From a phage, in NCBI GenBank assembly GCA_014687725.1, contig GCA_014687725.1_4094.1: a stretch of 64,000 bases of DNA, one strand, 5' to 3'. Within the stretch, counting starts at the first letter, position 1, and each line of letters starts with the position of its first letter. The position numbers and the translations under genes are program-made. Under the pieces are notes generated by a model that saw only the letters and a list, made by a program, of their open reading frames with translations, had not been told where the DNA came from and did not search any database. Below are positions 21,729-50,292 of the stretch, piece after piece.

Positions 21729-21971
21729 ATGAAAGTACTGACAGAACTAGAAATGTATCATAGATTTAATAAGTACTATCATTTACTTAAGCCTATACAG
21801 AGGATTAAATGTCCATTTGAAGAGAAACAGGTTTTAATCTATGAGCACAAGTTCTTTGTATCATTAGGTACAGATCAACAAGAGTACTATTTGACGTTGT
21901 ACTTGATTACATTAATAGATTTAATTCACTATAAAACCAAACAAGCTAATAAAGAGAAATATGAAAACTAA
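21729..21971 (+). CDS. family A paralog
   Basis: motif LGTDQQEY; ATG 21729 just after upstream TAA (track 21696). Confidence 0.6.
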   Translation: MKVLTELEMYHRFNKYYHLLKPIQRIKCPFEEKQVLIYEHKFFVSLGTDQQEYYLTLYLITLIDLIHYKTKQANKEKYEN

Positions 21972-22305
21972 TATACAACTCAAGGTATATAAATCATTTG
22001 AACATACATATATCAAAAGTAGTCTATGTAGAGATGTAATGGATTACAAGGGTAAGCCATTCACAATTACCTATGATTCTTATGTTAGTGATTTATATAT
22101 ATCATTTGTTAATTACGAAAATAAAATATACAAGCACGTTGATATTAAAGATTTAAGTACTTTATCACCAGAGGAATACTTTCAGGAATCATTAGTATGG
22201 GATTTAGAGTTTCCTATGCCATTAGTACATAAGATGATAGTACTAATGAAAGAATCTAAACAGGAGCCTAATGGTGATTATGAAGAACACACAGTTGAGT
22301 ATTAA
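21961..22305 (+). CDS. family B paralog (EEYFQ-motif protein)
   Basis: motif LSPEEYFQESLVWD. Confidence 0.65.
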   Translation: MKTNIQLKVYKSFEHTYIKSSLCRDVMDYKGKPFTITYDSYVSDLYISFVNYENKIYKHVDIKDLSTLSPEEYFQESLVWDLEFPMPLVHKMIVLMKESKQEPNGDYEEHTVEY

Positions 22306-22675
22306 AAGTACTGATAATACTAAGAGTTATACAAGCTCAAGTACTGTGACAATCGAAGTGAATTCTATTAATGCTGGTAATGCAGTAGATAAGTTCTTTA
22401 TTGCTCAAGGGTACAGGAAAGATATTCATCAATATTGTTCAGTATATGGGGAGTACAATTCTACTGAAGATATAATTTATTGGTCAACACATCAAGATTA
22501 TATAACTAAAATTGGCGTTCCAGATGTTAGTACTTTATCTGAAGAAGAATACTTTCAGTACAGCTTAGTACATGATGTACCTATACCTTTAGGGTTAATC
22601 AAGGGTATGCAGGAAGAGGTTCATAAGCTTAAATCCATGAGTTCAGGTACTTTCATTAGAACAGTGCAATACTAG
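22271..22675 (+). CDS. family B paralog
   Basis: motif LSEEEYFQYSLVHD; start uncertain (alt ATG 22280). Confidence 0.6.
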   Translation: MVIMKNTQLSIKSTDNTKSYTSSSTVTIEVNSINAGNAVDKFFIAQGYRKDIHQYCSVYGEYNSTEDIIYWSTHQDYITKIGVPDVSTLSEEEYFQYSLVHDVPIPLGLIKGMQEEVHKLKSMSSGTFIRTVQY

Positions 22676-22676
22676 C

Positions 22677-22705
22677 TTGACAGTACTTTTCATTACTGAT
22701 ATAGT
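22677..22705 (+). promoter_or_regulatory. sigma70-like promoter inside array
   Basis: TTGACA 22677-22682, 17-nt spacer, TATAGT 22700-22705. Confidence 0.55.
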
Positions 22706-22734
22706 ACACTAACGTTAATCATAGGGTAAAAATT

Positions 22735-22980
22735 ATGTTAAATTTTTTAAATTTCCTTATCGTTTTGTGTATTGTTCTTGGGATTGCACCATTTGTATTG
22801 TATTTCATGGATTCAGATGAAATGCAGAAGATGAATTGCACAAGGACAGGACAGAGTAGAGAAGAGACGATTCTTATGCCTGTTACGGTTATTGTTAACA
22901 ACATGCCCATTACAAACATGGTCCCTACCCTAACGACAACGTACCAGTACTCTTGTGCTGACGGAGAGAGGTGGAGATGA
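22735..22980 (+). CDS. hypothetical small membrane protein (81 aa)
   Basis: N-terminal hydrophobic helix MLNFLNFLIVLCIVLGIAPFVLYF; own promoter. Confidence 0.55.
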   Translation: MLNFLNFLIVLCIVLGIAPFVLYFMDSDEMQKMNCTRTGQSREETILMPVTVIVNNMPITNMVPTLTTTYQYSCADGERWR

Positions 22981-23297
22981 AATTTAATATAGCAAAAACA
23001 TCGAGTATATGTATTTTTGGTTATGCAGAAGAGTTAGGTGATATTGACATTCTTTTGTACAAAAAGGATGGTGTTATGCATTTCAAGTACCAGGATGAAG
23101 AGGCAGACAATTATCCTTTACCTAATTTAGTACAAATGCAGGAAGATGAATTATTCCAGTACAGCTTAATATACGACATTGATATTTGCACGATGCCAGT
23201 ACTAATTAGTATTCAAAAAGTGATGCTCGATATGTATGATAAGCTAATACAAGGTACATCAGGGAGAATCATTGAAATCGATATACAAGACAATTAA
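22977..23297 (+). CDS. family B paralog
   Basis: motif MQEDELFQYSLIYD; ATG 22977 in ATGA overlap (track GTG 22971). Confidence 0.6.
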   Translation: MKFNIAKTSSICIFGYAEELGDIDILLYKKDGVMHFKYQDEEADNYPLPNLVQMQEDELFQYSLIYDIDICTMPVLISIQKVMLDMYDKLIQGTSGRIIEIDIQDN

Positions 23298-24232: not shown

Positions 24233-24436
24233 ATGCAAAAGATTAATACGATAACATTAAATGCATTACAGGATTCATTATTAGATAGTATTAAGATGTA
24301 TTACAATATACATTTGAAGGGTGGTATTGATAATTACGATTATTATTTGAGTTTAATTACATTTGAGCACCTTTCAGTACAGGACAGGATTTTACATCCT
24401 ACAAATCCTAGGTATCCATCGATAGGTAAATTATGA
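24233..24436 (+). CDS. hypothetical small protein (67 aa)
   Basis: Track ORF after 148-bp gap. Confidence 0.5.
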   Translation: MQKINTITLNALQDSLLDSIKMYYNIHLKGGIDNYDYYLSLITFEHLSVQDRILHPTNPRYPSIGKL

Positions 24437-24981
24437 ATGAGATAGAGTTATTAGCACACAAGATAAGTACAATAATGCTTATCCTCAATAACAACCATCC
24501 TATATCGCATATAGATGGAATCCTGAGTCAGAGGACAGGTGGTAGTTTATATTTGTCCATAAACGCAGATATCGCAAGGAAATACATTGATATTGATGTT
24601 GAAATCGAATATGATACAACGGGGATTGTTGATGTAGGTGCATTAATCAGTTCAAATCCAGTATCAGCATCCCCATTGACCAAAGATGTTAGTACAGGAT
24701 TCGAAGGATATTTGTGGTACAATACCAATGATGATTATTTTATATATCAGCATTCCAATACAAATTATGATGAAGACAAATTTCAGTTCATAGACCCTTA
24801 TGATGAAGCTGGCGTATTCCAACAATCATTAATCACAAAACCGCATGAGATGATGTATCTAATGTTATTCAGTACAATGCATTTGAATCCATTAATTAAA
24901 GGTTTAAAATTTTATATTCAATTAAATTTAGTCCATGTAGTTTATGATTTATTAATGCAAGGATATAGTTATGAAGTATAA
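24433..24981 (+). CDS. family B paralog (divergent)
   Basis: motif DEAGVFQQSLITK; ATGA overlap. Confidence 0.6.
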   Translation: MNEIELLAHKISTIMLILNNNHPISHIDGILSQRTGGSLYLSINADIARKYIDIDVEIEYDTTGIVDVGALISSNPVSASPLTKDVSTGFEGYLWYNTNDDYFIYQHSNTNYDEDKFQFIDPYDEAGVFQQSLITKPHEMMYLMLFSTMHLNPLIKGLKFYIQLNLVHVVYDLLMQGYSYEV

Positions 24982-25282
24982 AATGATGTATACCCCAGAT
25001 ATGATTTATGTTGAATTAGAAGATGATGACGATGGGTGGAATTTGATTTATTCAAGAAGTTCAGGTTGGTACATGGCACATTTAAATGATTCGATAGTTA
25101 CAGATTATTTTGTAGATTTCAATACATTATCCGATGAAGAATTGTTCCAACAGCAATTAGTGATTGACACGGGTGGTTATGATGTCTTATTATTAAAAAA
25201 GATACAGAAAGCTGTTATTGATTTTAAGCCCATGATATGGCAAAGGAAATATTATGACCTCGAAGTACCGTACCAGCAATGA
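24971..25282 (+). CDS. family B paralog
   Basis: motif LSDEELFQQQLVID. Confidence 0.65.
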   Translation: MKYKMMYTPDMIYVELEDDDDGWNLIYSRSSGWYMAHLNDSIVTDYFVDFNTLSDEELFQQQLVIDTGGYDVLLLKKIQKAVIDFKPMIWQRKYYDLEVPYQQ

Positions 25283-25820
25283 AATTCAGTACACCTACGC
25301 TAATGCAATCCTTATGGGACAAAAGTTAGCTTGTATTGTTGCAGCCTTATATAATGCCCAGAAATATCACAAGCGTCATTTCCACAAATGTATTGGTATT
25401 ATTCCATCGAAGTACAATACATATATTGCGTGCACGAGTCATTTTGATAAACGATTCAATACACCTGATACCCCAAATTCCCGTAGTGTTATTGGTCTTT
25501 TGGATTTCGCACCTGGTGCTGTTATTGGAAAGAATGATTTAGAGTACGCATGGTATAATAAAAATGCCCCATTAGTAATGGTAACATATGATAAAGAAAC
25601 GAACAAAACAATAGAGTACAATACATATAAATCAGAGGAAGAATTTTTCCAAGGTTCAATGCTTGTACCAGTGCGTTTGTTATTTTATAATGTCATAATG
25701 AGTACAGTACACAATAGTCCATTACACAAGAATCACAAAATTAATTTCAATTTTTGTGCTTATGCGATTGATGGTGTGTATGAGTGTTTAATGGAGGTAT
25801 TGAGTTATGAAGCTGAATAA
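25254..25820 (+). CDS. family B paralog
   Basis: motif KSEEEFFQGSMLV. Confidence 0.65.
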   Translation: MTSKYRTSNEIQYTYANAILMGQKLACIVAALYNAQKYHKRHFHKCIGIIPSKYNTYIACTSHFDKRFNTPDTPNSRSVIGLLDFAPGAVIGKNDLEYAWYNKNAPLVMVTYDKETNKTIEYNTYKSEEEFFQGSMLVPVRLLFYNVIMSTVHNSPLHKNHKINFNFCAYAIDGVYECLMEVLSYEAE

Positions 25821-26148
25821 TACATTTGATATTAATAAGTTAAGAGAATGGTTTTATAGTATTGAAATTGAAGCCATCCCGTATCATAGATATGAACAAT
25901 ATAATTTAACCAGTATTGATATCAGTGAGTTGTACGCGTATTATCAAAGTGCATTAGAGATGCATAAGTTATTTTTGAGTACAGATTTTGTTCTAAATTA
26001 CAATTTTGAGGAATTTAAAAATTATAATTTAGTACAGAAATATGTAGTAGCAAAGTACATGTACCTTCAAGGAATTACAAGTATAGTGGAATTCAATACA
26101 GTCCTTGCTTTAGTTGAGGTAATTTTATGCAGTACATGTATGATTTAG
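25807..26148 (+). CDS. hypothetical protein (113 aa), array member
   Basis: Track ORF; no clear family motif. Confidence 0.5.
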   Translation: MKLNNTFDINKLREWFYSIEIEAIPYHRYEQYNLTSIDISELYAYYQSALEMHKLFLSTDFVLNYNFEEFKNYNLVQKYVVAKYMYLQGITSIVEFNTVLALVEVILCSTCMI

Positions 26149-26633
26149 AGTTCAGCTTAGATGCTGCATTTAAATATGTTCACAAGATAGAAACAATATA
26201 CAGTACATTATGTGCAATAAAATCAGTAACAGAAGAGCTTGATGTTGGTGAAAAATATCAGGTATGGAATAATACATTTTTAAATAAAGAACGTTGCTCT
26301 ACGGGGTTTAATATTTTAACATTTAATCCCAGCAATTGTTACCCAGAGAAGCATGAACGTTATCCGAATGACGACATGTGGTTTGAGTACAAAGAAGATT
26401 GTGATATGTCGTTCATTGAAGTTCCTGATGATTTTAATGCACAAGATTTAACAGACGAGTGGTGGTTCCAGCAGAATTTAGTCCACGATGATATTGATTT
26501 ATTTTTTTATGTAGTATTTAAAATGCTTTATCACAACAATATAGTACAAGATAGTGTGTTTTTTTCATGTCTATATATTGATGATTTGTACAATGAAATT
26601 CAAATCAACATGCCCAGCACGCCTGTATCGTAA
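26127..26633 (+). CDS. family B paralog
   Basis: motif LTDEWWFQQNLVHD. Confidence 0.65.
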   Translation: MQYMYDLEFSLDAAFKYVHKIETIYSTLCAIKSVTEELDVGEKYQVWNNTFLNKERCSTGFNILTFNPSNCYPEKHERYPNDDMWFEYKEDCDMSFIEVPDDFNAQDLTDEWWFQQNLVHDDIDLFFYVVFKMLYHNNIVQDSVFFSCLYIDDLYNEIQINMPSTPVS

Positions 26634-26649
26634 GATATGGGCTTTTTTC
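26612..26649 (+). terminator. terminator-like hairpin + T-run
   Basis: 5-bp stem GCCCA/TGGGC with long loop, then T6. Confidence 0.4.
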
Positions 26650-26658
26650 GTTTTGGTA

Positions 26659-26687
26659 TTGACAAAGAAGTGCAAAGCTGTTATCAT
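26659..26687 (+). promoter_or_regulatory. sigma70-like promoter inside array
   Basis: TTGACA 26659-26664, 17-nt spacer, TATCAT 26682-26687. Confidence 0.5.
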
Positions 26688-26715
26688 GTGTAATCATTTT
26701 AAAGGAGAACATATA

Positions 26716-27228
26716 GTGAGTTTCATAATCCCAAGTACATACGAAGATGCATCAAGTGCAGTTCATAAGATTCATTATATTTTTAATTTAATTATTAGAT
26801 CTGCAAAAATTAAAATGTATGCACCTCTTGTGACAAATAATCGAAATGAAGAAATTTTTATTAGCACAGACAAAATTATTTTTCCATATTTCAATGAAGA
26901 TAGATTGTGGTTCATACATTTAGCTGCATTACAAAAATATAAGATGTCAATTCGTAATAATTTGGTTATACCGTTATATCATCCAGATATTGGAGAGGAT
27001 GAGTATTTTCAGTACAGTACAGTGCATCGCCATGAAGATATCTTTGTTGCTATGCTTATTGCTAAATTGAACACCGTTGATTTGGAGTACCACAAATACA
27101 ATAATAAATCATGTAAGATCATAATCCCTGCATTCATAGCTCTTTATGATTATGTGGTGCATAACAAAAAAGATGATACATATGCTTTCAATGAAGAGTA
27201 TTTGGATTTTTTTAAGGATAACATATGA
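26716..27228 (+). CDS. family B paralog
   Basis: motif IGEDEYFQYSTVH; GTG 26716 with SD AAAGGAG (track ORF began upstream at 26554; alt ATG 26683). Confidence 0.55.
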   Translation: MSFIIPSTYEDASSAVHKIHYIFNLIIRSAKIKMYAPLVTNNRNEEIFISTDKIIFPYFNEDRLWFIHLAALQKYKMSIRNNLVIPLYHPDIGEDEYFQYSTVHRHEDIFVAMLIAKLNTVDLEYHKYNNKSCKIIIPAFIALYDYVVHNKKDDTYAFNEEYLDFFKDNI

Positions 27229-27764
27229 GCAGTACAACAGTATCAAAAGTACAGAAAGCAATGTCATTCAATGAAATTGGTACATTTAAAGATAAGATCA
27301 TTGATTGCCTTGAATACATGATTTGTAGTAATATCGAAAGTATCGAGATATTTAACAAGACAAATCGCTCTTACCATATGATGTACATTGCAAACAATAA
27401 TGGTATCATTCCATTTATTTCGGATAGTACAATATGGTACGCATGTGATACGAAAAAATACACAGCAGGTTCGTATAGCTTAGGGTCACATACGGAATTG
27501 ATTATTCCTGAGCATTGTATGAAAGAAGAAGAATATTTTCAAATGCAATGTATACATTCACCATTAGTGTTGTTTAGTTTATATATTATACCTTATATCA
27601 CCAAATGTGTTCATGAGAATAAAGCTCCGTGGAATCATGAATTTGTATCGTTGAAGTTATTGTATAATGTATTAGTAGAATATTATGATTACAGGCACAA
27701 TGGTACAATCAGTGATGTATGGGATTTTGAATCGCTAAGGGTGAAAACATACACAGGTGAATGA
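27225..27764 (+). CDS. family B paralog
   Basis: motif MKEEEYFQMQCIH; ATGA overlap. Confidence 0.65.
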   Translation: MSSTTVSKVQKAMSFNEIGTFKDKIIDCLEYMICSNIESIEIFNKTNRSYHMMYIANNNGIIPFISDSTIWYACDTKKYTAGSYSLGSHTELIIPEHCMKEEEYFQMQCIHSPLVLFSLYIIPYITKCVHENKAPWNHEFVSLKLLYNVLVEYYDYRHNGTISDVWDFESLRVKTYTGE

Positions 27765-27765
27765 T

Positions 27766-28380
27766 ATGACCAGAATTAAAATGTATGATTTGATGCAGTA
27801 CAGTAAAATTGCCATTCCAGTGCTTAATAAAGTGCTGGATGCATTCATTGCCAAATACCCTGAGAATTCAGTGTTATGTATTCCATTTAGTGTTCCAGAT
27901 AAAGATGATATATTCCAAGTGAATGTCAGTACACGTGGTATTACATTACAGCAGAAATACATGGATACGGAATATTATGGAATAAAGTTGGATTCAGTAC
28001 AGGGTTCAAAATCAGCCTATGATTTTTTTGTTCCTAATAATATAGAGTCATGGGAAACAAACATTTCAAAGAAAGATGAAAATGATGTTCCTATTAGTGG
28101 TGTGTTCAACAATAAAGTTTTTTATTATTACGAAACCGACAAATTCCCTGAAGAGTTATATTACAATTCAGAAATGAATGAAGATGTAGATGCATTCATG
28201 TTTCAATTATCTTTAGTACATGATATCATTGATGTTCAAGAGTTAAGAGCAGAAATCAATTTAGCTAAAGAGTTATCGGACATGCTGCCACCGTTTAGTA
28301 TGCTTTTTTGTGAAGGTGGTTATTTTTCAAAAGAAGTGTTTGAACATTTCGTAGATGTTGTAAAAGGGTTGGATATATAG
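27766..28380 (+). CDS. family B paralog
   Basis: motif DVDAFMFQLSLVHD; ATG 27766 with SD AGGTGA (track GTG 27757). Confidence 0.6.
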   Translation: MTRIKMYDLMQYSKIAIPVLNKVLDAFIAKYPENSVLCIPFSVPDKDDIFQVNVSTRGITLQQKYMDTEYYGIKLDSVQGSKSAYDFFVPNNIESWETNISKKDENDVPISGVFNNKVFYYYETDKFPEELYYNSEMNEDVDAFMFQLSLVHDIIDVQELRAEINLAKELSDMLPPFSMLFCEGGYFSKEVFEHFVDVVKGLDI

Positions 28381-28584: not shown

Positions 28585-29100
28585 ATGCATCAACACAAGC
28601 ATCATTCATATGATTTTGCAATTAACATTATGAAGTTCATTCGAGCGTTGGAGGATGGGAAGCTTAGTCATAAGTACACCAAAGTGGGTGACAATTGGTT
28701 CAGAAATGATGATGAGTTCAGAAGTCATAAGATTGTTTACAGCAATAATTACAGTGCCAATTACCTACAAGATGTAGTGATGTGTTTTGAATACGTGTTG
28801 CAGTTCAGGGGTTCAATCCAGGATGAGTTGATGGAGCACATGTACATCCGATACCTTCCAATGCTCAAAGATGAAAATGTATTATTAAATTCAATATACC
28901 AACGAGTTCGTGAAATTGAGTGCAGGGATATATTAGATACAGAAGAATCGTATTTCCAGCAATCCCTGATTTATGCACCTGATTTATTACAGGTACATAA
29001 TTTGTTTAATACATTACGTCAAAACATCAGTACAGACATATTTTTGTCATTATCGGATTATGATACATTTGTCAAAGATTTAGAGGAAATAGGTTTATGA
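28585..29100 (+). CDS. family B paralog
   Basis: motif TEESYFQQSLIY; SD GAGG. Confidence 0.65.
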   Translation: MHQHKHHSYDFAINIMKFIRALEDGKLSHKYTKVGDNWFRNDDEFRSHKIVYSNNYSANYLQDVVMCFEYVLQFRGSIQDELMEHMYIRYLPMLKDENVLLNSIYQRVREIECRDILDTEESYFQQSLIYAPDLLQVHNLFNTLRQNISTDIFLSLSDYDTFVKDLEEIGL

Positions 29101-42953: not shown

Positions 42954-42963
42954 TGTTTACGTC

Positions 42964-42992
42964 TTTACAGTAGCATTCAGATGTGTTATAAT
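42964..42992 (+). promoter_or_regulatory. promoter with extended -10
   Basis: TTTACA 42964-42969, 14-nt spacer, TG-n-TATAAT 42984-42992. Confidence 0.5.
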
Positions 42993-43019: not shown

Positions 43020-43586
43020 ATGAGTACTGAATTAATTAAAGAAGTTACCTTACTTCTGAAGCATTGTTTTAAGTTCATTCCTGATACTGGTTCACGCCAG
43101 TACATTAAAGTTAATGAGAAATATAACATCAATATCCTTGTATCTGAAACTGCGAGCAGTTATGCTAACATTGAGTTGGATTCTGAAGAAAAATATACAG
43201 TATTACAAATCATAGCAGATGTACAACGTAAACAAGATTATCGTTCTTCATTTTACAACGATTATCTGTGTGTTTGCTCAAACTTCAGTGAGAATAAAAT
43301 TGTGTATAAGAATTTATACACACATGAAGTGATTGATACATATAATTATAAAATTTCATCTGATGAATACAATGTGCTAATGTTCAACGCAAACCTTTTG
43401 TATGATACCAGTACTGTACGCTGTTTAGAGTTAGCATATAAAATTCCAAAGATCATGGAAAGAAAAGATTTGATTCACTTTAAAACTATTTTAAAATACA
43501 GTACAAAAGAATTAGAGGATTTAGTACAGGCTCTTAAGAATTTCATTAATGAACATGTACCTGTTAAATTCGAGGATGCACAATGA
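43020..43586 (+). CDS. hypothetical protein (188 aa), possibly very divergent family B
   Basis: weak motif-like segment VLMFNANLLYD; SD AGGAGAAG. Confidence 0.6.
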   Translation: MSTELIKEVTLLLKHCFKFIPDTGSRQYIKVNEKYNINILVSETASSYANIELDSEEKYTVLQIIADVQRKQDYRSSFYNDYLCVCSNFSENKIVYKNLYTHEVIDTYNYKISSDEYNVLMFNANLLYDTSTVRCLELAYKIPKIMERKDLIHFKTILKYSTKELEDLVQALKNFINEHVPVKFEDAQ

Positions 43587-44167
43587 ACCATATCAGAACT
43601 AAAATTTTGAGACTCATGCATGACATTGCAGAACTTTCAGAGATTCATGACATTACAGAAATTGTTGAATTTGGTGATTATCGACTGAAAATTGAAAACA
43701 AATCCAAACATCGTTTTGGTTCAGTTCAGTTGGATGTATATAAAACTTATGAATTTTCTAAAAAAATTAAAAGTTCATGGGATACGATTACTATGTACAT
43801 TCGCACATCCAGAAATCGTGAACGTATTGGTTCTATTTCTTCTAATATGGTATTTGCGAATGCATTACATGAAAAAATGAATAAAATTGTAGAATCTGAT
43901 TTCAGTGAAGATGATGGTTTTATTGGGTTGGATGTTCCACCAGAATTAGACCAAAGTGAAGATATTCGAGATGCATTCATTTTCCAGAAATCATTGTTGG
44001 ACAATTACAAAGAATTCGAGTACTTAATGCTTTGTTACGATACTGCAAAAGTTCTTGATTGTGGTGAACTAGTTATGTACAATGATTTTATCAATTACAA
44101 GACTGATGTTCTGAATACACTACTTCAAAATATAGAATCGGTTAAGGAAAAATATGAACGCTTATAG
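43583..44167 (+). CDS. family B paralog
   Basis: motif IRDAFIFQKSLLDN; ATGA overlap. Confidence 0.65.
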   Translation: MNHIRTKILRLMHDIAELSEIHDITEIVEFGDYRLKIENKSKHRFGSVQLDVYKTYEFSKKIKSSWDTITMYIRTSRNRERIGSISSNMVFANALHEKMNKIVESDFSEDDGFIGLDVPPELDQSEDIRDAFIFQKSLLDNYKEFEYLMLCYDTAKVLDCGELVMYNDFINYKTDVLNTLLQNIESVKEKYERL

Positions 44168-44732
44168 TTATATGACAGAACGCCATCAGTTATTATATGA
44201 TATCAGTACAAAAATGTTATCAATTGTTAGTAGTGCAAAAGAAATTGAAAAACAATACCTCATCCGTGATGTAGCAATTTCATCTAAATGTTGGTCCAAT
44301 GAATATTACGATCACGGTATTCTTACTATTTCTGGGGCTAGAAATATTTGTATTGTAAAAAATAAAAATAAAAGTAATGAAGAGTGTGAGATTAGAACCG
44401 ATATACAAATTAAGGATGATGGGAGTTTTTCACACCACCCATTCCATATTAGTACTATTAGTGTTTTATATAATATTAAAGTACTATTCGGTGATGAAGA
44501 GTATGTGTTAAAAGCTATCAATCCAGAATCAAGTACAGTTGAAGAAGAACTGTTCCAGATGAGCACTGTTATACATGAAGAGGTTCTTAGTACTGTTATT
44601 TTTTGTAGTTTAATTTATCATGAATACAAAAAGTTCCAGTTCGATTTCCACATGTTAGGAACATACATCTTCAATAATTTGAATGTAGATCGTTTAAAAG
44701 CATTAAATGCAGCAATGGATAAGGTGCTATAA
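44154..44732 (+). CDS. family B paralog
   Basis: motif VEEELFQMSTVIHE. Confidence 0.65.
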   Translation: MNAYSYMTERHQLLYDISTKMLSIVSSAKEIEKQYLIRDVAISSKCWSNEYYDHGILTISGARNICIVKNKNKSNEECEIRTDIQIKDDGSFSHHPFHISTISVLYNIKVLFGDEEYVLKAINPESSTVEEELFQMSTVIHEEVLSTVIFCSLIYHEYKKFQFDFHMLGTYIFNNLNVDRLKALNAAMDKVL

Positions 44733-45160
44733 TGACAAGAGATGATTGTTTGTACATATGGGATATAATTGAAACTACACTTTCAAATCCAGAAAATTAT
44801 AAAACAAAAAAAAGACAACGACACAAAATATGGATAGATTTGTTCGTTGAGGGCATACACGCAGTGACTATTTGGCATTCACCAAGGGCATCAGCATCTA
44901 CTCTATTGGACAATGAATGCATTGATTGCATTAATTCCACTTTTCATCTCCACGGTACTACAATTTTCGGTACATTTCTGGATATTGAAAGTAAAGATGA
45001 TATTGATTCACTTGCGTTACAATACCAAGTACTATATAATACTAAATTAATTTACGATTTAGTACTAGCTTCTTATGTGTATAAATTAATGATGAAATAT
45101 AATCATATTTCTGTTTCAGTTTATACTAAGGATATTCTTTCATTAAGAGACAAAACATGA
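44732..45160 (+). CDS. hypothetical protein (142 aa), array member
   Basis: Track ORF. Confidence 0.55.
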   Translation: MTRDDCLYIWDIIETTLSNPENYKTKKRQRHKIWIDLFVEGIHAVTIWHSPRASASTLLDNECIDCINSTFHLHGTTIFGTFLDIESKDDIDSLALQYQVLYNTKLIYDLVLASYVYKLMMKYNHISVSVYTKDILSLRDKT

Positions 45161-45666
45161 GTTTATTAAATGCACGAGAATTAGTTGAGATGTATGAGAT
45201 CTTATCTTCATATAAAAATTCTCCAAAAGATGTAATTCTAAACAAAAAGTTCCATGTCAGTGTTGAACATATAACAAATATAGATATGATTTCTTTGGTG
45301 GAAAGTAATAAGTCAGGTCTGGAGCGTGATATCATGCGTTTGATTTATATTCCTAAACCATCATATACTAATGATAGTACTATTAGCAATGAGACATTCA
45401 TGTATAGTCCTGGTACGGATTCTACTATAGTATCGCTGTCCAATAAATCAATGGATACTTTACAATTCATCAATACCAGTACTGATAACATTGAAGAAAT
45501 TGAATTTCAAAACAATACATTAAGTCCATGTAGTAGTGTTATAACCTTTATGTCATATCTATGGTCAACTAAAACAAGTGCTGTTGTATATAGTTCAAAT
45601 TATACACAAGATAGTATTGTTGAATCATATAAAGTTCTAAAGGAATACTATGAAAATAACAAATGA
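45157..45666 (+). CDS. family B paralog (divergent)
   Basis: motif NIEEIEFQNNTLS; ATGA overlap. Confidence 0.55.
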   Translation: MSLLNARELVEMYEILSSYKNSPKDVILNKKFHVSVEHITNIDMISLVESNKSGLERDIMRLIYIPKPSYTNDSTISNETFMYSPGTDSTIVSLSNKSMDTLQFINTSTDNIEEIEFQNNTLSPCSSVITFMSYLWSTKTSAVVYSSNYTQDSIVESYKVLKEYYENNK

Positions 45667-46237: not shown

Positions 46238-46263
46238 ACCAGGGGTTGACTCTGGTTTTTTTG
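46238..46263 (+). terminator. rho-independent terminator (contains TTGACT)
   Basis: stem ACCAG/CTGGT, loop GGGTTGACT, T7 run. Confidence 0.65.
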
Positions 46264-46292: not shown

Positions 46293-46844
46293 ATGAACTA
46301 CAATCATGATCTTTTTACATTATGTGCATCCAAATGTGTTGAAGGATGGGCAGATAAAATCAATACCATAATTCATCGATATCTCGTCTTTAGTTCCCGT
46401 GCACGAAGTGAGGGGGCTATGGATTTCAAATATACACTATCTATTGATGGTGTAACTATCCATGCAGACGAAGAACGTCTGAACATTAATTTGTATGATT
46501 CCTGTGTATTTGCTATTCACCAAAAGATGGGGAAAGGATGGGGTTGTAATAACATTAACTCCAAAGCTATCTTTTGGGTTGGTCACCATCAGACAGTACT
46601 TGATCCTTCAATCAAATCTAATCTTTTATCCGATAATATGGTTTATGATTTATTGTACTCCGAAGAACAACATTTTCAGTTAAGTACATTGCATGTTCTG
46701 GCACAGTACGAGGATTGTTACAAAACATTAGAACTATGCCATTCCCTTGAACTTAAAGATAAATTAATACAAGTTTACCCTTCATTCTTTCATGAAGAAG
46801 TCCAAAGTACACTAGATCATATTTTATATGGATACGATAAATGA
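46293..46844 (+). CDS. family B paralog
   Basis: motif SEEQHFQLSTLHV; SD AAGGAGAA. Confidence 0.65.
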   Translation: MNYNHDLFTLCASKCVEGWADKINTIIHRYLVFSSRARSEGAMDFKYTLSIDGVTIHADEERLNINLYDSCVFAIHQKMGKGWGCNNINSKAIFWVGHHQTVLDPSIKSNLLSDNMVYDLLYSEEQHFQLSTLHVLAQYEDCYKTLELCHSLELKDKLIQVYPSFFHEEVQSTLDHILYGYDK

Positions 46845-47443
46845 GAAAAAGTTATCAAGAAGCTATTGACTTAATTCGTGAAGTTATCAAGGTGGCTCCT
46901 GCTGCTATTGAGTTCAAGAAGTCCATATACAAGAAGTATGGGTCAATGTCGAGTATGTGCTTTCAAAAGAAACGTAGAGCATTCACTACCCAGTACTGGA
47001 ATGATTCTATCATCCTGAGCAATGAGACTCAGCGTATTTTAACACTAGAATCTGAACCTAATGAGTACGGGGAAGGGAACATTTGTGTACCTGATTATGA
47101 TGAAATTAACTTCAACTGCGGTGATTTTGAAACAACATTATTACTTCATGAGGGTTATCCAGAAGGTGATGTATTAGCTGAGTACAATCCAAAAACTAAA
47201 ATTCTCAAAAGAGGAATCCAGTTCACTATTAATAACAAAGATGATGTTCAAGCAGCACTGATGCAACTGAGTACAAGTGAACCTATCACTATTAGTGTAG
47301 AAGAGTTATGGGGAATTATTTCAGTACTCAATGAGTGCTACAAAGTAAAATCATTGCGTAAACACAGCATTATATTACATACCAATATGGCAAATATAAA
47401 ATGTAAGCACATTCAAGAAATGGTGGTTCCAGATGGACTTTAA
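46841..47443 (+). CDS. hypothetical protein (200 aa), weakly family B-like
   Basis: segment AALMQLSTSEP; ATGA overlap. Confidence 0.55.
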   Translation: MRKSYQEAIDLIREVIKVAPAAIEFKKSIYKKYGSMSSMCFQKKRRAFTTQYWNDSIILSNETQRILTLESEPNEYGEGNICVPDYDEINFNCGDFETTLLLHEGYPEGDVLAEYNPKTKILKRGIQFTINNKDDVQAALMQLSTSEPITISVEELWGIISVLNECYKVKSLRKHSIILHTNMANIKCKHIQEMVVPDGL

Positions 47444-48017
47444 AGAAATTGAAAGTAAATTAAAGTACTTCAAAGATATCAAACTTCTTTGGAAAAAGTA
47501 TAAAGTTGATTACAATTTCAGTGATGATGAGACAATAAAATACATTGAGATTAATATCAAAATCAAGTTCAAGAATAATAATTATGGTGAAGTAACCTTA
47601 AATCATACTGGTATATCACTCAAGGACTATGATGGTACAACACTCGCATATTTTGACTTCACACCAGAACCAGGTGAAACACTACTTAGTGAGATAAATT
47701 CCTATGACATGGAAGTGTTCGGCGGGAATCCGTTACTGTTCCGACTTTCTGAAGAGTGGAGTGAAGAGTACTACACTTACAAAGATGGTGTAGTACTTGA
47801 TATTCATGGAGAAGTTGTGAATGACTTGGAAGAACGTTTGTTCCAAGAATTGTGTGTTTCAAATACTTCATATGCATACAATCATATCCTTGACATGTTT
47901 GATTTATATAGTAAAATAGATGCTGAAATGAAGGCACATGGTATTCATTACCTTACAATTAACGACTATGCTCAACTCGAAACCGCTGTGAAAGCATTGA
48001 CTAAAGTACTGAAATAG
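47433..48017 (+). CDS. family B paralog (divergent)
   Basis: motif LEERLFQELCVSN. Confidence 0.55.
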   Translation: MDFKEIESKLKYFKDIKLLWKKYKVDYNFSDDETIKYIEINIKIKFKNNNYGEVTLNHTGISLKDYDGTTLAYFDFTPEPGETLLSEINSYDMEVFGGNPLLFRLSEEWSEEYYTYKDGVVLDIHGEVVNDLEERLFQELCVSNTSYAYNHILDMFDLYSKIDAEMKAHGIHYLTINDYAQLETAVKALTKVLK

Positions 48018-48026
48018 GAATGAAAT

Positions 48027-48440
48027 ATGAAACTGTATCATGCGAGTACTGTAAAAATTGATAACTTTTATATCCCGTATGGTGGTCTTCATATGGGAGG
48101 TAAACACAGTGCTTTGGAAGCTGCATTACGCAAGCTGAGAAGCCCACTGAACGTAGTAGACGCATGTACAGTATACTTGCATACCTTAGAAGTTGATGTT
48201 GATAACGTGCTTCTGTGTGAAGATTTAGGCAGTGATGATGAGTGGCGTTCACTTATTGAGAATTGCACTGCTCAAGGTTATGATGCTGTTCAGTACAAAA
48301 ATGATTACGAGCCAGACAATGTTCCTAGCTTTATGATTTGGGATGCATCTAAAGTTCGCATCATTGAAGTTGATGCTATGCATATGGATGAAGCTGAAAT
48401 GATTATCGAAGATTTTCTTGATGAATATGAAGGTGTATAA
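48027..48440 (+). CDS. hypothetical protein (137 aa)
   Basis: Track ORF; distinct from families A/B. Confidence 0.6.
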   Translation: MKLYHASTVKIDNFYIPYGGLHMGGKHSALEAALRKLRSPLNVVDACTVYLHTLEVDVDNVLLCEDLGSDDEWRSLIENCTAQGYDAVQYKNDYEPDNVPSFMIWDASKVRIIEVDAMHMDEAEMIIEDFLDEYEGV

Positions 48441-48976
48441 TGTCTGAACCGATGGTAGCACTGGCACGTACAAAATTACTATTAAAGATTGGTGAGATTT
48501 TTACGGTTCTTCTGTCCAATAATATTGATATCACTGAGCTAGATATTAAGCAACCGTGGGAAGTGACTATGTTCTCGGCGTTCCACCGATTGTCATATAA
48601 AGGTGAAAGTGTTCTTGATTTTAACCCTAAAGCAAAATTCATAGATTATGCTGCGTTGTACAGAGAGTTGCACAGAAATATTTATTCCGGTTGTATAACC
48701 AATAACTTCAAAGAAATTAAAGTTCAAACTGCATCACATGAGTTCAATGATTTACTTTATCCAGAATTTAATCTAACGGAAGAATTACTCTTTCAGTACT
48801 CGTTAATTCTCACAAATCTCGAAACGCTAGAGTACTACAAAGAGTTAGTAGATATTTTTATGAATACACGACTTTCAAAAGATATTGTGATATTCTGGTA
48901 TACAGAGCATGTTACGGAGGAATTGCTTACTGAATTTCTTCTAAATATGACAGCTATAAAGGAGAAGTTATGTTAG
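48440..48976 (+). CDS. family B paralog
   Basis: motif LTEELLFQYSLIL; TAATG overlap. Confidence 0.65.
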   Translation: MSEPMVALARTKLLLKIGEIFTVLLSNNIDITELDIKQPWEVTMFSAFHRLSYKGESVLDFNPKAKFIDYAALYRELHRNIYSGCITNNFKEIKVQTASHEFNDLLYPEFNLTEELLFQYSLILTNLETLEYYKELVDIFMNTRLSKDIVIFWYTEHVTEELLTEFLLNMTAIKEKLC

Positions 48977-49443
48977 ATATTTTAGGAAACATCGATACTG
49001 CAAATTATTTTATCCAGGACGCACTGTTCAATACAGTTCAACAAGGATTAGAAGTTCGTCATAACGTTTACCAAGGTGATGGTTATTTCGTTGATATTGT
49101 TGAGGCACGAAAGAATACGTTTAATGTTAACATTACAACACTGGGTAGACAGAACATTGCACGAATTTTAGTAAGTAAAGATGAAATTGTATTGAGATAC
49201 AGTGCTAAGTTTATGTTGACTTATAAGAAAAAAACTGATATGTTCAGTACTAATTTATTTGATGAACCATTTGACCTTGATGATATTGAAGCTACTTTCT
49301 TTACTCAAAGTACTATGGTAAAATACACTGATGTTCAATTTTCTGCTGATGTAATGTCAGAAACATTACAAATGATCAAGGTATTATTTTATGCATTTGA
49401 GCAATTTAGAGAAGAAAGAAACAAGGTTAACAACCACAGATGA
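48970..49443 (+). CDS. hypothetical protein (157 aa), weakly family B-like
   Basis: segment IEATFFTQSTMV. Confidence 0.55.
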   Translation: MLDILGNIDTANYFIQDALFNTVQQGLEVRHNVYQGDGYFVDIVEARKNTFNVNITTLGRQNIARILVSKDEIVLRYSAKFMLTYKKKTDMFSTNLFDEPFDLDDIEATFFTQSTMVKYTDVQFSADVMSETLQMIKVLFYAFEQFREERNKVNNHR

Positions 49444-49804
49444 ACTAATAGAGGCGATCACTAAGGAGTCAAAATACCACAAAGGGATTCGTCTATATTT
49501 TATAGATATTGGTTCAATGGAAGGCATATACATTTATGGTTCACAATCTTTATCTTATGATGTAATGCCAAAAAAACATGTAAAAATCTTTTTAGGTTCA
49601 AATAAAAAAACTTTCTTGACAATTAATGATAAAAACGTTATTATGAATTCGTTGGGTCATGATAAGGTGGAAATTGATCTAAACACACTGGAGGATATTG
49701 ATTTTTTTCAATACGAGTGTTTAGGTGTTGACTTACATGGCATTAGTAGCGATATGATAAAATCATTAATCAAATATTTCGAAGGTGTTCATAAATGTAT
49801 CTAA
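49391..49804 (+). CDS. family B paralog (divergent)
   Basis: motif LEDIDFFQYECLG; 53-nt overlap with upstream gene, start uncertain. Confidence 0.5.
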   Translation: MHLSNLEKKETRLTTTDELIEAITKESKYHKGIRLYFIDIGSMEGIYIYGSQSLSYDVMPKKHVKIFLGSNKKTFLTINDKNVIMNSLGHDKVEIDLNTLEDIDFFQYECLGVDLHGISSDMIKSLIKYFEGVHKCI

Positions 49805-50292
49805 CTAAATCAATGAAAAATTCATTTGATAAAATCAAGAGTTGTCTTGATGGGGAAAATATTACAAGTGTTACACAAACTGCTGACCAAATTCAAAGCA
49901 GTTCAAGTGATTGTACTGTTATTTTAGGTTTACATAGTCTACGTTTATCAATAGTAAATAATATTGACAACACTGCTATTGTAATCACACCATGCCATAT
50001 TCAAAATGAGAATGGTGTATATCTTCATCACATGGGAACAGTATTTCATATTTTCAATACAAACGAAAACATTGTTAAGGAATACAAATCTCTTAATATT
50101 GATTCAGGTGAATTATTTCAAATGAGTACTTTGTACTCATGTAATTTTACAGATACTTCATGTATTTTGCCATTTTTCTTGGAAATTATTAAGAAAATGG
50201 AAAATTTAAAACGTGAATACAATAAAGAAATGGTTCCTGAAGCTATATTAAATATTACTAATGCTATAGAGAAGTATAATGCAGTGACTTAA
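49795..50292 (+). CDS. family B paralog
   Basis: motif DSGELFQMSTLYS. Confidence 0.65.
   Translation: MYLTKSMKNSFDKIKSCLDGENITSVTQTADQIQSSSSDCTVILGLHSLRLSIVNNIDNTAIVITPCHIQNENGVYLHHMGTVFHIFNTNENIVKEYKSLNIDSGELFQMSTLYSCNFTDTSCILPFFLEIIKKMENLKREYNKEMVPEAILNITNAIEKYNAVT

What the first reader, a model, noticed from the sequence alone, without database searches (positions are those of the whole stretch)
21961..50292. ~28-kb block of ~50 tandem 'EEYFQ-motif' (family B) paralogous genes
Dozens of consecutive plus-strand ORFs of 100-200 aa share one core, [LWM]-[ST]-x-E-E-[YLF]-[YF]-Q-x-S-[LT]-[VI]-[YHWF]-[DN], about two-thirds of the way along, followed by a hydrophobic helical stretch, while their N-terminal halves are highly divergent. 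Subgroups are visible, for example five consecutive WDSEEYYFQ(Q/N)ST copies at 32427-34748. Many members are visibly rich in D/E and aromatic residues. I do not recognise the family. Devoting this much of a size-limited phage genome to one diversifying family suggests an arms-race function such as anti-defence, host takeover or a decoy/mimic arsenal; that is hypothesis, not observation.
Basis: seen in the sequence. Interest (0 to 1): 0.9.

Follow-up and report, generated by a model that had tools for sequence, protein, structure and literature searches.

The report
Giant paralog family in jumbo coliphage
About 28 kb of a 350-kb E. coli jumbo phage genome is packed with 41 to 50 old, diverged copies of one small, mostly acidic protein with no recognisable relatives, probably made before the late phase of infection to bind host proteins, and the family has not been described as such.

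Summary
The window comes from an Asteriusvirus (Rak2-like, about 350 kb) jumbo coliphage, not a T4-type phage. An HMM built on the motif finds 41 firm members among the 67 tiled plus-strand ORFs between 21961 and 50292. It finds one more at 61376-61954 and no shuffled or reversed decoy out of 1815. About 8 further ORFs in the array carry degenerate motifs. The core is D-x3-L-[ST]-E-E-x-[LY]-F-Q-x-S-[LT]-[VI]-[YHF]-D, at 0.67 of protein length, and it is conserved at the protein level rather than the DNA level.

AlphaFold models are confident (pLDDT 85-87). They show a meander beta-sheet packed by helices. No solved structure, Pfam, NCBIfam or PADLOC family matches. Relatives occur only in Rak2-like jumbo phages of Enterobacterales; RaK2 has a partly collinear array.

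The block starts about 6.5 kb after the terminal repeat. It has sigma-70-like promoters in its few gaps, no T4-type late promoter motif, and no member in the phAPEC6 virion proteome. Orthologues are under purifying selection (omega about 0.3, equal in both protein halves), although they diverge faster than neighbouring genes.

Best reading, by inference only: a non-enzymatic binding scaffold diversified into many host-directed early proteins. The function is untested.

The parts
21961..22305 (+). member (short type, 114 aa), motif SPEEYFQESL
   Evidence: HMM E 1.8e-14; motif
22271..22675 (+). member (134 aa), SEEEYFQYSL
   Evidence: HMM E 3.4e-14
22677..22705 (+). sigma-70-like promoter in a 59-nt gap (TTGACA-17-TATAGT, TG)
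22971..23297 (+). member (108 aa), EDELFQYSL
   Evidence: HMM E 2.4e-14
24433..24981 (+). member (long type, 182 aa), EAGVFQQSL
   Evidence: HMM E 2.7e-12
24971..25282 (+). member (103 aa), SDEELFQQQL
   Evidence: HMM E 1e-14
25254..25820 (+). member (188 aa), SEEEFFQGSM; no orthologue in ph0011
   Evidence: HMM E 6.3e-12
26127..26633 (+). member (168 aa), TDEWWFQQNL
   Evidence: HMM E 3.3e-13
26621..26687 (+). terminator-like hairpin (26621-26642) followed by a sigma-70-like promoter (26659-26687, TTGACA-17-TATCAT, TG)
   Evidence: this is a real gap if the next gene starts at 26716, as the phAPEC6 CDS length implies
26554..27228 (+). member, GEDEYFQYST; probable true start 26716 (GTG)
   Evidence: HMM E 5.1e-11
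27225..27764 (+). member (179 aa), KEEEYFQMQC; no orthologue in ph0011
   Evidence: HMM E 1.1e-12
27757..28380 (+). member (207 aa), VDAFMFQLSL
   Evidence: HMM E 3.4e-10
28585..29100 (+). member (171 aa), TEESYFQQSL
   Evidence: HMM E 1.2e-11
29097..29441 (+). member (114 aa), DEAARFQYET
   Evidence: HMM E 6.7e-11
29380..30003 (+). member, SDESLFQYST; probable start 29452
   Evidence: HMM E 2.1e-14
30613..31176 (+). member, DDAALFQAAL; probable start 30799
   Evidence: HMM E 2.6e-11
31173..31337 (+). truncated copy of the 5' end of member 31705-32061 (85 nt, 96% identical); insertion footprint
   Evidence: D14
31334..31705 (+). member (123 aa), SEEEFFQEST; absent at this place in ph0011
   Evidence: HMM E 1.4e-14
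31705..32061 (+). member (118 aa), DTAELFQESL; modelled short-type representative
   Evidence: HMM E 1.5e-17; AF2 pLDDT 87.1, pTM 0.82
32058..32417 (+). member (119 aa), DDGELFQAAL
   Evidence: HMM E 1.2e-13
32427..32918 (+). member (163 aa), WDSEEYYFQQST; net charge -20
   Evidence: HMM E 1.8e-20
32920..33390 (+). member (156 aa), WGSEEYYFQQNT
   Evidence: HMM E 1.1e-17
33387..33830 (+). member (147 aa), WGTEEYYFQQSL
   Evidence: HMM E 3.5e-16
33830..34318 (+). member (162 aa), WDSEEYYFQNST; net charge -26
   Evidence: HMM E 1.9e-18
34296..34748 (+). member (150 aa), WDSEEYYFQNST
   Evidence: HMM E 7.1e-19
34745..35059 (+). member (104 aa), HESFIFQESL
   Evidence: HMM E 4.4e-11
35364..35813 (+). 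member (149 aa), TEEGYFQGST
   Evidence: HMM E 3.8e-13
35810..36346 (+). possible divergent member (178 aa), FDEQCFQLSC
   Evidence: motif remnant; hhalign matches only the N-terminal helix, P 0.005; below HMM threshold
36701..37261 (+). member (186 aa), TEENIFQNSV
   Evidence: HMM E 3.4e-11
37860..38222 (+). member (120 aa), EDELFQESL
   Evidence: HMM E 7.7e-16
38212..38547 (+). member (111 aa), DEGELFQESL
   Evidence: HMM E 1.3e-16
38507..39091 (+). member, NQEYYFQLSL; probable start 38537
   Evidence: HMM E 6.4e-14
39088..39117 (+). sigma-70 consensus promoter (TTGACA-18-TATAAT, 12/12, TG) at a 59-nt gap
39151..39627 (+). member (158 aa), TEEEFFQYST; reciprocal best hit to RaK2 L001 18943-19479
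   Evidence: HMM E 1.4e-16
39624..40094 (+). member (156 aa), SEEMYFQKSL; modelled long-type representative; reciprocal best hit to RaK2 ORF419
   Evidence: HMM E 4.8e-17; AF2 pLDDT 84.5, pTM 0.82
40084..40446 (+). member (120 aa), SEEELFQENT
   Evidence: HMM E 6.5e-15
40430..40843 (+). member (137 aa), TPDELFQYSL
   Evidence: HMM E 4.9e-11
40831..41334 (+). member (167 aa), SEESYFQNSL
   Evidence: HMM E 6.9e-15
41857..42420 (+). member (187 aa), LESAMFQLSL
   Evidence: HMM E 2.3e-13
42365..42931 (+). member, TDEVLFQLST; probable start 42413
   Evidence: HMM E 2.5e-15
42930..42992 (+). terminator-like hairpin (42930-42950) followed by a sigma-70-like promoter (42964-42992, TTTACA-17-TATAAT, TG) in an 88-nt gap
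43020..43586 (+). possible divergent member (188 aa), degenerate motif
   Evidence: hhalign in register but weak, P 0.13; position in the array
43583..44167 (+). member (194 aa), RDAFIFQKSL
   Evidence: HMM E 6.6e-6; recovered by profile search (P0008)
44154..44732 (+). member (192 aa), VEEELFQMST
   Evidence: HMM E 2.6e-12
44732..45160 (+). possible divergent member (142 aa)
   Evidence: hhalign in register, P 0.02
45157..45666 (+). probable divergent member (169 aa), IEEIEFQNNT
   Evidence: hhalign probability 86%, P 4.7e-6; long-type HMM 13.8 bits
45650..46231 (+). member (193 aa), GEEHYFQLST
   Evidence: HMM E 8.8e-13
46238..46256 (+). terminator-like hairpin in a 61-nt gap
46293..46844 (+). 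probable member (183 aa), SEEQHFQLST
   Evidence: long-type HMM 17.2 bits, above the top decoy at 14.9; hhalign 48%
46841..47443 (+). member (200 aa), VQAALMQLST
   Evidence: HMM E 1.5e-9
47433..48017 (+). possible divergent member (194 aa), LEERLFQELC
   Evidence: hhalign in register, P 0.011
48440..48976 (+). member (178 aa), TEELLFQYSL
   Evidence: HMM E 4e-10
48970..49443 (+). possible divergent member (157 aa), DIEATFFTQST
   Evidence: hhalign in register, P 0.0036
49391..49804 (+). possible divergent member (137 aa), EDIDFFQYEC
   Evidence: motif remnant; hhalign weak, P 0.075
49795..50292 (+). member (165 aa), DSGELFQMST; last of the block
   Evidence: HMM E 1.8e-9
61376..61954 (+). outlying member (192 aa), GLPEHFQIST, 11 kb downstream of the block
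   Evidence: HMM E 2.5e-8, matching only the post-motif part of the model; conserved in ph0011 at 88.5%

Best explanation
The block is an ancient, lineage-specific multigene family of Rak2-like jumbo phages. One small, non-enzymatic alpha/beta scaffold has been duplicated about 45-50 times: a meander beta-sheet packed by two to four helices, in a short form of 100-135 aa and a long form of 145-210 aa with an extra N-terminal helix. The copies have diversified on the sheet, its loops and their insertions.

The conserved [ST]-E-E-x-[LY]-F-Q-x-S-[LT]-[VI]-x-D motif most likely holds the fold together. It would provide a helix N-cap with acidic first turns, core F/L/V residues, and an Asp that caps the next helix. 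It is less likely to be an active site.

The genes are probably transcribed by host sigma-70 RNA polymerase in a few long, translationally coupled operons just inside the left terminal repeat, so the proteins would appear early and are not packaged. Each paralogue is inferred to bind a different host target (defence, takeover or competitor-exclusion targets), and this would keep each one under purifying selection.

Shown here: the family, the predicted fold, the lack of relatives, the position, the selection regime and the absence from virions. Inferred: early timing, binding and host targets.
For: - **Family and extent:**
- **No conserved catalytic-type residues:** only F, Q and S are near-invariant, and the other conserved positions are hydrophobic, aromatic or capping residues.
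- **Motif geometry:** the variable motif positions -2 and +2 are spaced i/i+4, as expected for the single exposed face of the predicted helix 105-112.
- **Models:** both are confident, pLDDT 84.5 and 87.1, pTM 0.82.
- **Distribution:** 132 clusters at 50% identity in 1.84 billion proteins. The named ones looked up come only from phages of about 350 kb. BFVD structural relatives occur only in Rak2-like phages of E. coli, Klebsiella, Cronobacter, Yersinia and Serratia. RaK2 has at least 30 members, and the distal half of its array is collinear with this one.
- **Real, maintained genes:** omega is 0.28-0.31 against 0.20 for the flanks.
- **Faster long-term divergence than embedded non-family genes**, and gain and loss between strains.
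- **Timing:** the terminal repeat ends near window position 15.5 kb. All genes are on the plus strand. 54 of 66 junctions overlap. Consensus sigma-70 promoters sit in the few gaps. TATAAATA occurs 0 times against 14.8 expected. In a related phage, its only two copies in a 49.5-kb structural region lie about 40 nt upstream of the start of a plus-strand gene cluster (g221-g223, which includes a virion structural protein gene) and of the baseplate operon.
- **Relatives:** genes in the terminal repeat of the related phage PA5oct are early and depend on host RNA polymerase (PMC7318152). CBB's equivalent region was predicted to be early (PMC5259590).
- **Not in virions:** none of phAPEC6 gp404c-gp466c is among the 62 virion proteins (PMC7247149 Table 1).
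- **Charge:** mostly acidic.
Against: - There are no expression data for any Asteriusvirus, and no binding partner or phenotype for any member.
- Promoter-like sites overall are no more frequent than in shuffled sequence (104 against 108; 130 against 128). Only their placement in the gaps is suggestive.
- There is no gene-wide positive selection and no N-terminal excess of dN/dS.
- The array is old and partly collinear across genera, which fits conserved targets better than a fast arms race.
- There is no similarity to any known anti-defence protein.
- About a quarter of members are not acidic.
- The invariant Q is unusual for a purely structural residue.
Confidence: 0.45

Rival explanations
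1. Common-handle adaptor family. The invariant F-Q-x-S helix is a shared docking surface for one host or phage hub, such as a protease, RNA polymerase or clamp-like machine. The variable sheet recruits different substrates to it, as eukaryotic-virus F-box/PRANC or BTB adaptor families do.
For: Q is invariant in 42/42 members and F in 39/42, in a family whose members share only about 20% identity. The motif is kept in nearly all of the 132 remote clusters. The rest of the protein is highly variable.
Against: The conserved positions fit helix capping plus core packing, and the variable positions -2 and +2 form the likely exposed face. No hub has been identified. The resemblance to the clamp-binding QL[SD]LF motif is loose, with T at the Leu position in 16/42 members. 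The motif lies in a confidently folded segment, not a disordered peptide.
Confidence: 0.15
2. Nucleic-acid mimics or anti-restriction decoys. The strongly acidic members imitate DNA or RNA and titrate host nucleic-acid-binding defence proteins, as Ocr, ArdA and Arn do.
For: Median pI is 4.9. Several members carry net charge of -20 to -26, with D/E-rich insertions (sequences). The genes probably sit in an early region.
Against: No fold similarity to any solved protein, DNA mimics included. Most members carry only -5 to -13. Roughly a quarter are near-neutral or basic, with pI up to 9.1. Fifty different mimics are hard to rationalise.
Confidence: 0.1
3. Phage-internal role. The proteins serve the phage's own replication, DNA organisation or assembly, for example as chaperones or scaffolds that are not packaged, rather than acting on the host.
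For: Each paralogue is under purifying selection, and the array is collinear between E. coli and Klebsiella phages. This would fit conserved phage partners.
Against: Members differ in presence between closely related strains. They diverge much faster than the surrounding genes. They sit among small unknown genes next to the terminal repeat, not among replication or morphogenesis genes. None is in the virion.
Confidence: 0.1
4. Packaged internal or ejected proteins, or substrates of a protease that cuts at the E-x-x-Y-x-Q/S-like motif (it resembles the TEV protease site).
For: Jumbo phages package paralogous internal proteins. The motif superficially resembles ENLYFQ/S.
Against: None of gp404c-gp466c is among the 62 phAPEC6 virion proteins. 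The register of E and Y varies between members. The motif is in a confidently predicted helix. No cognate protease is known.
Confidence: 0.02
5. Functionless duplicated filler or chance recurrence of a common peptide.
For: All members are annotated 'hypothetical'. The genome is AT-rich and full of small ORFs.
Against: 0 of 1815 decoys hit. Omega is about 0.3. Orthologues are kept across phage genera. Fold predictions are confident.
Confidence: 0.02

Closest known systems
Terminal multigene families of large eukaryotic DNA viruses (ASFV MGF360/505; poxvirus Bcl-2-like and ankyrin/PRANC families). This comparison rests on my own knowledge.
   Same: Tandem arrays of tens of diverged paralogues close to a genome end. 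They share a fold core with a variable surface, copy content differs between strains, and the proteins are non-structural.
   Different: The folds and hosts are unrelated. Immune-evasion roles of those families are shown experimentally, whereas nothing has been tested here. This array is old and partly collinear across genera rather than visibly expanding and contracting.
Lineage-specific expansion of a Zn-ribbon protein (about 35 copies) in Bacillus jumbo phage G (Iyer et al. 2021, PMC7824862)
   Same: A very large expansion of a single small-protein family inside a jumbo phage. Its function is unknown or only inferred.
   Different: That family is a cysteine-based Zn-ribbon proposed to bind DNA. 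The present family has no conserved Cys or His and a different alpha/beta fold. It has more copies (41-50) and is shared by several phage genera. That comparative survey does not mention it.
Host-takeover and pre-early gene clusters next to or inside terminal repeats (T5 pre-early region and SPO1 host-takeover module, from my own knowledge; PA5oct terminal-repeat genes, PMC7318152)
   Same: Small, often acidic, non-structural proteins encoded at the end of a terminally redundant genome and transcribed by host RNA polymerase.
   Different: Those clusters are collections of unrelated genes, not one paralogous family. Early timing is measured there and only inferred here.
DNA-mimic anti-restriction proteins (Ocr, ArdA, Arn)
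   Same: Small, acidic, early proteins without enzymatic motifs.
PHROG families phrog_9317, 12674, 13866, 15629, 34600, 35776, 30243 and 38467 (all 'unknown function')
   Same: These are the same proteins. Individual members match their own PHROG at E 1e-56 to 1e-142 and cross-hit the others weakly.
   Different: PHROGs keeps them as separate, unannotated families. The unifying superfamily, its fold and its genomic organisation are not recorded there.

Membership tests
Any curated protein family (Pfam-A, NCBIfam, PADLOC) | Score at or above the curated cut-off of a family model | tested here: not met
   Pfam: 0 families or sub-threshold noise for 8 members. NCBIfam and PADLOC: 40 sequences scanned, only scattered hits by one or two members each.
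Viral multigene family (operational definition) | Many paralogues in tandem sharing a statistically supported common core | tested here: met
   41 firm members in 28 kb, 0 of 1815 decoys.
Viral multigene family (operational definition) | Copy content varies between related genomes | tested here: met
   41 firm members in the block here (42 in the window), 39 in the ph0011 locus, 43 in the 121Q locus, and at least 30 in the RaK2 locus. Four window members lack a ph0011 orthologue and two ph0011 members lack a window orthologue. There is an insertion footprint at 31173-31787.
Viral multigene family (operational definition) | Role in host interaction or immune evasion | not testable with these tools
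   No experimental data found.
Early / host-takeover genes | Transcription early in infection by host RNA polymerase | tested here: inconclusive
   Consensus sigma-70 promoters lie in the gaps at 22677, 26659, 39088 and 42964. TATAAATA is absent. The block starts about 6.5 kb after the terminal repeat. No transcriptome exists for this phage. The total count of promoter-like sites is not above shuffles.
Virion-internal / ejected proteins | Detected in purified particles | tested here: not met
   The phAPEC6 structural proteome (62 proteins) contains no gp404c-gp466c (PMC7247149 Table 1).
DNA-mimic anti-restriction proteins (Ocr/ArdA type) | Fold related to a known mimic | tested here: not met
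DNA-mimic anti-restriction proteins (Ocr/ArdA type) | Surface array of carboxylates imitating the DNA backbone | not testable with these tools
   Only bulk charge is available: median -9, extremes -20 to -26, and some members basic.
Genes under diversifying (arms-race) selection | dN/dS above 1, gene-wide or in the variable half | tested here: not met
   Pooled omega is 0.26-0.32 in both halves. Against 121Q only 2 of 41 genes exceed 0.6, and none exceeds 1. Site-level tests were not run.

The most novel reading that the evidence does not exclude
Rak2-like jumbo phages carry a genetically hard-wired repertoire of about 50 binders built on a previously unseen alpha/beta fold. Each paralogue would neutralise or redirect a different host defence or housekeeping protein. 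A variant reading has all of them docking through the invariant F-Q helix onto one host machine to feed it different targets. Either way it would be a bacterial-virus counterpart of the poxvirus and ASFV multigene families. To my knowledge it would also be the largest single-family expansion reported in a phage.
Probability: 0.3. Interest if true: 0.85.

Novelty: new variant of a known kind. Interest (0 to 1): 0.62.

Why it matters
Most of a jumbo phage genome is still unannotated. Here, 8% of a 350-kb genome reduces to a single protein family that has been conserved across phages of E. coli, Klebsiella, Salmonella, Cronobacter, Yersinia and Serratia.

If the members are host-directed binders, the array is a ready-made library of about 50 natural inhibitors or modulators per phage, and more than 130 sequence clusters overall. 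These could be screened against bacterial defence systems and essential machines. They might also help explain the host range of phages being developed for therapy, such as phAPEC6, PBECO4 and the RaK2/K64-1 group.

The family also gives a tractable model for how multigene families evolve in bacterial viruses. Defining it turns dozens of 'hypothetical proteins' per genome into one testable unit.

Tried and rejected
- **DNA-level repeat or regulatory element:** rejected. Synonymous codons are mixed, and DNA repeats are only 60-90% identical and confined to the motif.
- **TEV-like protease site (E-x-x-Y-x-Q/S):** rejected as coincidence. The register varies, the motif lies in a confidently predicted helix, and no member is in virions.
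- **Beta-clamp-binding motif QL[SD]LF:** only a loose resemblance recalled from memory, with T at the Leu position in 16/42 members. Not pursued.
- **Natural deletion mutants:** the Salmonella phage SD-1_S14 record has dozens of 30-900-nt gaps across all genes, dam and flanking genes included. That is an assembly artefact, so it says nothing about dispensability.
- **'Phi92_gp213' note on the ph0011 orthologue of 38507-39091:** tblastn finds no phi92 hit.
- **'Putative ADP-ribosyl transferase' label on the ph0011 orthologue of the embedded non-member 48027-48440:** no Pfam or PDB support.
- **Synteny-guided search for the array in Yersinia phage fHe-Yen9-04:** failed, because the region fetched is structural genes. 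Presence of the family there rests on Foldseek only.
- **AFDB50 fold search:** the library was unavailable.
- **Recent duplications:** even the closest paralogues are 29-58% identical, so post-duplication dN/dS is uninformative because dS is saturated.
- **Literature:** genome papers on phAPEC6, 121Q/PBECO4 relatives, RaK2, CBB, Sharanji and UE-S1, and the jumbo-phage survey, do not describe the family. RaK2's paper only notes that nearly 10% of its products are paralogues.

Full report
**Source and layout.** The window is 98-99% identical to Escherichia phages phAPEC6, G17, SHEFM2K and 121Q. These are Asteriusvirus, the Rak2-like group of roughly 350-kb jumbo myoviruses, so this is not a T4-type phage. 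In phage vB_Ec-M-J the direct terminal repeat is annotated as positions 1-21525. That places the end of the repeat at about window position 15.4-15.6 kb. From the left genome end the order is:
- the terminal repeat, with small genes that each have their own spacer;
- a tight array of about 72-aa 'LGT..QE' genes at 15585-21971;
- the block under study at 21961-50292.

Every gene is on the plus strand, and GC skew is positive throughout.

**Checking the observation.** I tiled the plus-strand ORFs of at least 50 aa and seeded an alignment on the motif. I then iterated an HMM against the window's ORFs plus 1815 shuffled or reversed decoys.
- 41 ORFs between 21961 and 50292, and one at 61376-61954, scored E below 1e-4 (most 1e-9 to 1e-20). 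No decoy hit, and the scores are bimodal.
- Firm members are 41 of the 67 tiled ORFs and cover 68% of the block. The block is 98.8% coding, and 54 of 66 gene junctions overlap.
- The consensus is D-x3-L-[ST]-E-E-x-[LY]-F-Q-x-S-[LT]-[VI]-[YHF]-D-x3-L. Q is present in 42/42, F in 39/42 and S in 34/42. F lies at 0.67 +/- 0.07 of protein length.
- Codons at these positions are freely synonymous, including both serine codon families. DNA repeats are weak and confined to the motif. The constraint is therefore on the protein.
- About eight further ORFs in the array keep motif remnants in the right register. Profile-profile support is decent for 45157 (86%) and 46293, and weak for the rest.
Those five copies are old, at 29-58% identity with saturated dS.
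- The acidic and aromatic bias is real but moderate.

**Anatomy.** There are two architectures.
- Short members (100-135 aa) have five beta-strands, the motif helix, a long helix and a C-terminal strand.
- Long members (145-210 aa) add an amphipathic N-terminal helix (pattern A..A..I..[VI]..F), more strands with variable and often D/E-rich insertions, an F-[YF]-L-D strand and a C-terminal helix.

AlphaFold2, run on paralogue and orthologue alignments, gave confident models: pLDDT 84.5 with pTM 0.82 for 39624-40094, and pLDDT 87.1 with pTM 0.82 for 31705-32061.

The motif forms a short helix (residues 105-112 in the long model) followed by a turn and a second helix. [ST] sits at the N-cap position, with E-E in the first turn. 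F, L and V/I are hydrophobic, and the trailing D is positioned to cap the next helix. The two variable motif positions (-2 and +2) are spaced i/i+4, as expected for the one exposed face. No Cys, His, Lys or Arg is conserved. I read the motif as fold-determining and the family as non-enzymatic. This is an inference from sequence pattern and predicted secondary structure, because I could not inspect coordinates.

**Relatives.**
- Pfam, NCBIfam, PADLOC and a profile search of all PDB sequences give nothing.
- PHROGs holds each member in its own 'unknown function' family, with weak cross-hits.
- An exhaustive profile search of 1.84 billion representatives found 132 clusters at E of 1e-3 or better. 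Most are full-length, and nearly all carry [ST]EE..FQ.S. Of the ten I looked up, the only named one is from Salmonella phages Munch and SE_PL. The contigs are phage-sized, up to about 350 kb.
- Word-indexed searches with the long and short profiles returned only Asteriusvirus-like contigs.
- Foldseek against BFVD found structural relatives only in Rak2-like jumbo phages: SP27, 121Q, RaK2, Cronobacter GAP32, Yersinia fHe-Yen9-03/04 and Serratia BF.
- A 40-kb RaK2 locus contains at least 30 HMM hits.
- From 39151 onward the window array is collinear with the RaK2 array. Family orthologues there are only 21-40% identical. Three non-family genes embedded in or adjoining the block are 41-64% identical (48970-49443, 48027-48440 and 50335-50808), and flanking genes are mostly 47-61%.

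**Evolution.**
- Against ph0011 (about 85-88% nucleotide identity), members range from 41 to 95% amino-acid identity. Four window members lack an orthologue and ph0011 has two extra.
- dS varies from 0.1 to above 2 between adjacent genes. This suggests a mosaic created by recombination (my inference).
- Pooled Nei-Gojobori omega against ph0011 is 0.28: N-terminal part 0.29 and core 0.26. Flanking genes give 0.20.
- Against 121Q, where dS is unsaturated, omega is 0.30 and 0.32 against 0.20. dN is 0.033 against 0.013. Only two genes exceed 0.6 and none exceeds 1.
- An 85-nt, 96%-identical repeat shows that ORF 31173-31337 is a truncated copy of the 5' end of member 31705-32061. The two copies flank member 31334-31705, which is missing at that site in ph0011. 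This is a footprint of a recent insertion.
- Overall, each paralogue is maintained by purifying selection, the family drifts faster than its neighbours, and content changes slowly by insertion and loss. The proposal of diversifying selection on the N-terminal half is not supported at the gene or half-gene level.

**Expression and location of the products.**
- The block has only a handful of intergenic gaps. They carry the best sigma-70 matches in the region: TTGACA-17-TATAGT at 22677; a terminator then TTGACA-17-TATCAT at 26621-26687; a 12/12 consensus with an extended -10 at 39088; a terminator then TTTACA-17-TATAAT at 42930-42992; and a terminator at 46238.
- The overall number of promoter-like sites is not above shuffled expectation, so this evidence is positional only.
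- The T4-type late promoter octamer TATAAATA is absent from both strands of all 64 kb, against 14.8 +/- 3.8 expected. Its core TAAATA is about eight-fold depleted.
- In the 49.5-kb structural region of Yersinia phage fHe-Yen9-04, the only two TATAAATA copies lie about 40 nt upstream of two gene starts: g221, which opens a plus-strand cluster containing a virion structural protein gene, and the baseplate operon. That phage encodes a 'sigma factor for late transcription'. I infer that the block has no late promoters.
- In the relative PA5oct, terminal-repeat genes are the early class and infection is rifampicin-sensitive (PMC7318152). CBB's equivalent region was predicted to be early (PMC5259590).
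- The phAPEC6 equivalents (gp404c-gp466c) are absent from the 62-protein virion proteome (PMC7247149).

**Interpretation.** The best-supported reading is a clade-specific multigene family of small, mostly acidic, non-catalytic scaffold proteins. They are probably made before the late phase and are not packaged. Each is kept for its own function, most plausibly binding of distinct host proteins for takeover, anti-defence or exclusion.

The binding step and the targets are inference. I give this reading 0.45. The rivals are:
- a shared-handle adaptor family that uses the invariant F-Q face (0.15);
- nucleic-acid mimicry by the most acidic members (0.10);
- a phage-internal, non-virion role (0.10);
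- packaged or protease-substrate proteins (0.02);
- non-functional filler (0.02).

The last two are largely excluded by the data above.

**Comparison and novelty.** Functionally, the nearest analogues are the terminal multigene families of ASFV and poxviruses, and the roughly 35-copy Zn-ribbon expansion of Bacillus phage G (PMC7824862). Positionally, the nearest analogues are the pre-early and host-takeover clusters of T5, SPO1 and PA5oct. The family belongs to none of these by sequence or fold.

The literature I could search does not describe it. RaK2's paper only remarks that nearly 10% of its products are paralogues. I class it as a new variant of a known kind: a viral lineage-specific multigene family built on a fold with no solved or curated relative.

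I score interest at 0.62. The family is large, conserved across genera, experimentally tractable and relevant to therapeutic jumbo phages. Its function is unknown, however, and paralogue-rich jumbo genomes are not surprising in themselves.

Noticed in passing
window 53935-54405 (+): A non-coding element of about 460 nt just upstream of the dam-methylase gene cluster. It lies partly under a doubtful TTG ORF at 54176-54421. It is conserved at 72-78% nucleotide identity in Erwinia, Yersinia, Serratia and Xanthomonas jumbo phages. A four-genus alignment shows long invariant blocks. RNAalifold predicts 96 pairs, 32 of them with compensatory double changes. There is no Rfam family at gathering score or at E<=1, and no tRNA or tmRNA. 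In fHe-Yen9-04 it also precedes an adenine methyltransferase. It is likely an undescribed structured phage RNA.
   Followed up: partly
29 are contiguous immediately after the terminal repeat, and 4 are interspersed in the family B block. Omega is about 0.34-0.37.
   Followed up: partly
whole window, both strands: TATAAATA (the T4-type late promoter) is absent, against 14.8 +/- 3.8 expected. Its core TAAATA occurs 11 and 12 times per strand against about 96 expected from base composition. In a related Yersinia phage, the only two TATAAATA copies in a 49.5-kb structural region sit about 40 nt upstream of the start of a plus-strand gene cluster and of the baseplate operon. This suggests genome-wide purging of the late-promoter word.
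   Followed up: partly
window 31174-31258 and 31703-31787: An 85-nt direct repeat, 96% identical. ORF 31173-31337 is a truncated duplicate of the start of member 31705-32061. The two copies bracket member 31334-31705, which is absent at this site in ph0011. This is a footprint of a recent gene insertion.
   Followed up: yes
window ~15366-15584: A 219-nt gap that corresponds to the inner end of the 21.5-kb direct terminal repeat annotated in vB_Ec-M-J. Upstream genes are individually spaced by about 60-90 nt, often with promoter- and terminator-like sites. Downstream genes are tightly packed and overlapping.
   Followed up: partly
window 48027-48440 (+): A non-family gene embedded in the array and unusually well conserved: 60% identity to RaK2 and 90% to ph0011. 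It is annotated 'putative ADP-ribosyl transferase' in ph0011, but nothing in Pfam or the PDB supports that label. The N-terminus reads KLYHAST.
   Followed up: partly
window 22735-22980 (+): An 81-aa ORF with a hydrophobic N-terminal half (a likely membrane protein), placed right after the promoter at 22677 and 95% conserved in ph0011.
   Followed up: no
locus L005 (Salmonella phage SD-1_S14, OR699183): This 310-kb 'complete genome' differs from the window by dozens of 30-900-nt gaps spread over all genes, dam and RNA-ligase flanks included. It looks like assembly drop-out rather than biology, so it should not be used for gene-content comparisons.
   Followed up: yes
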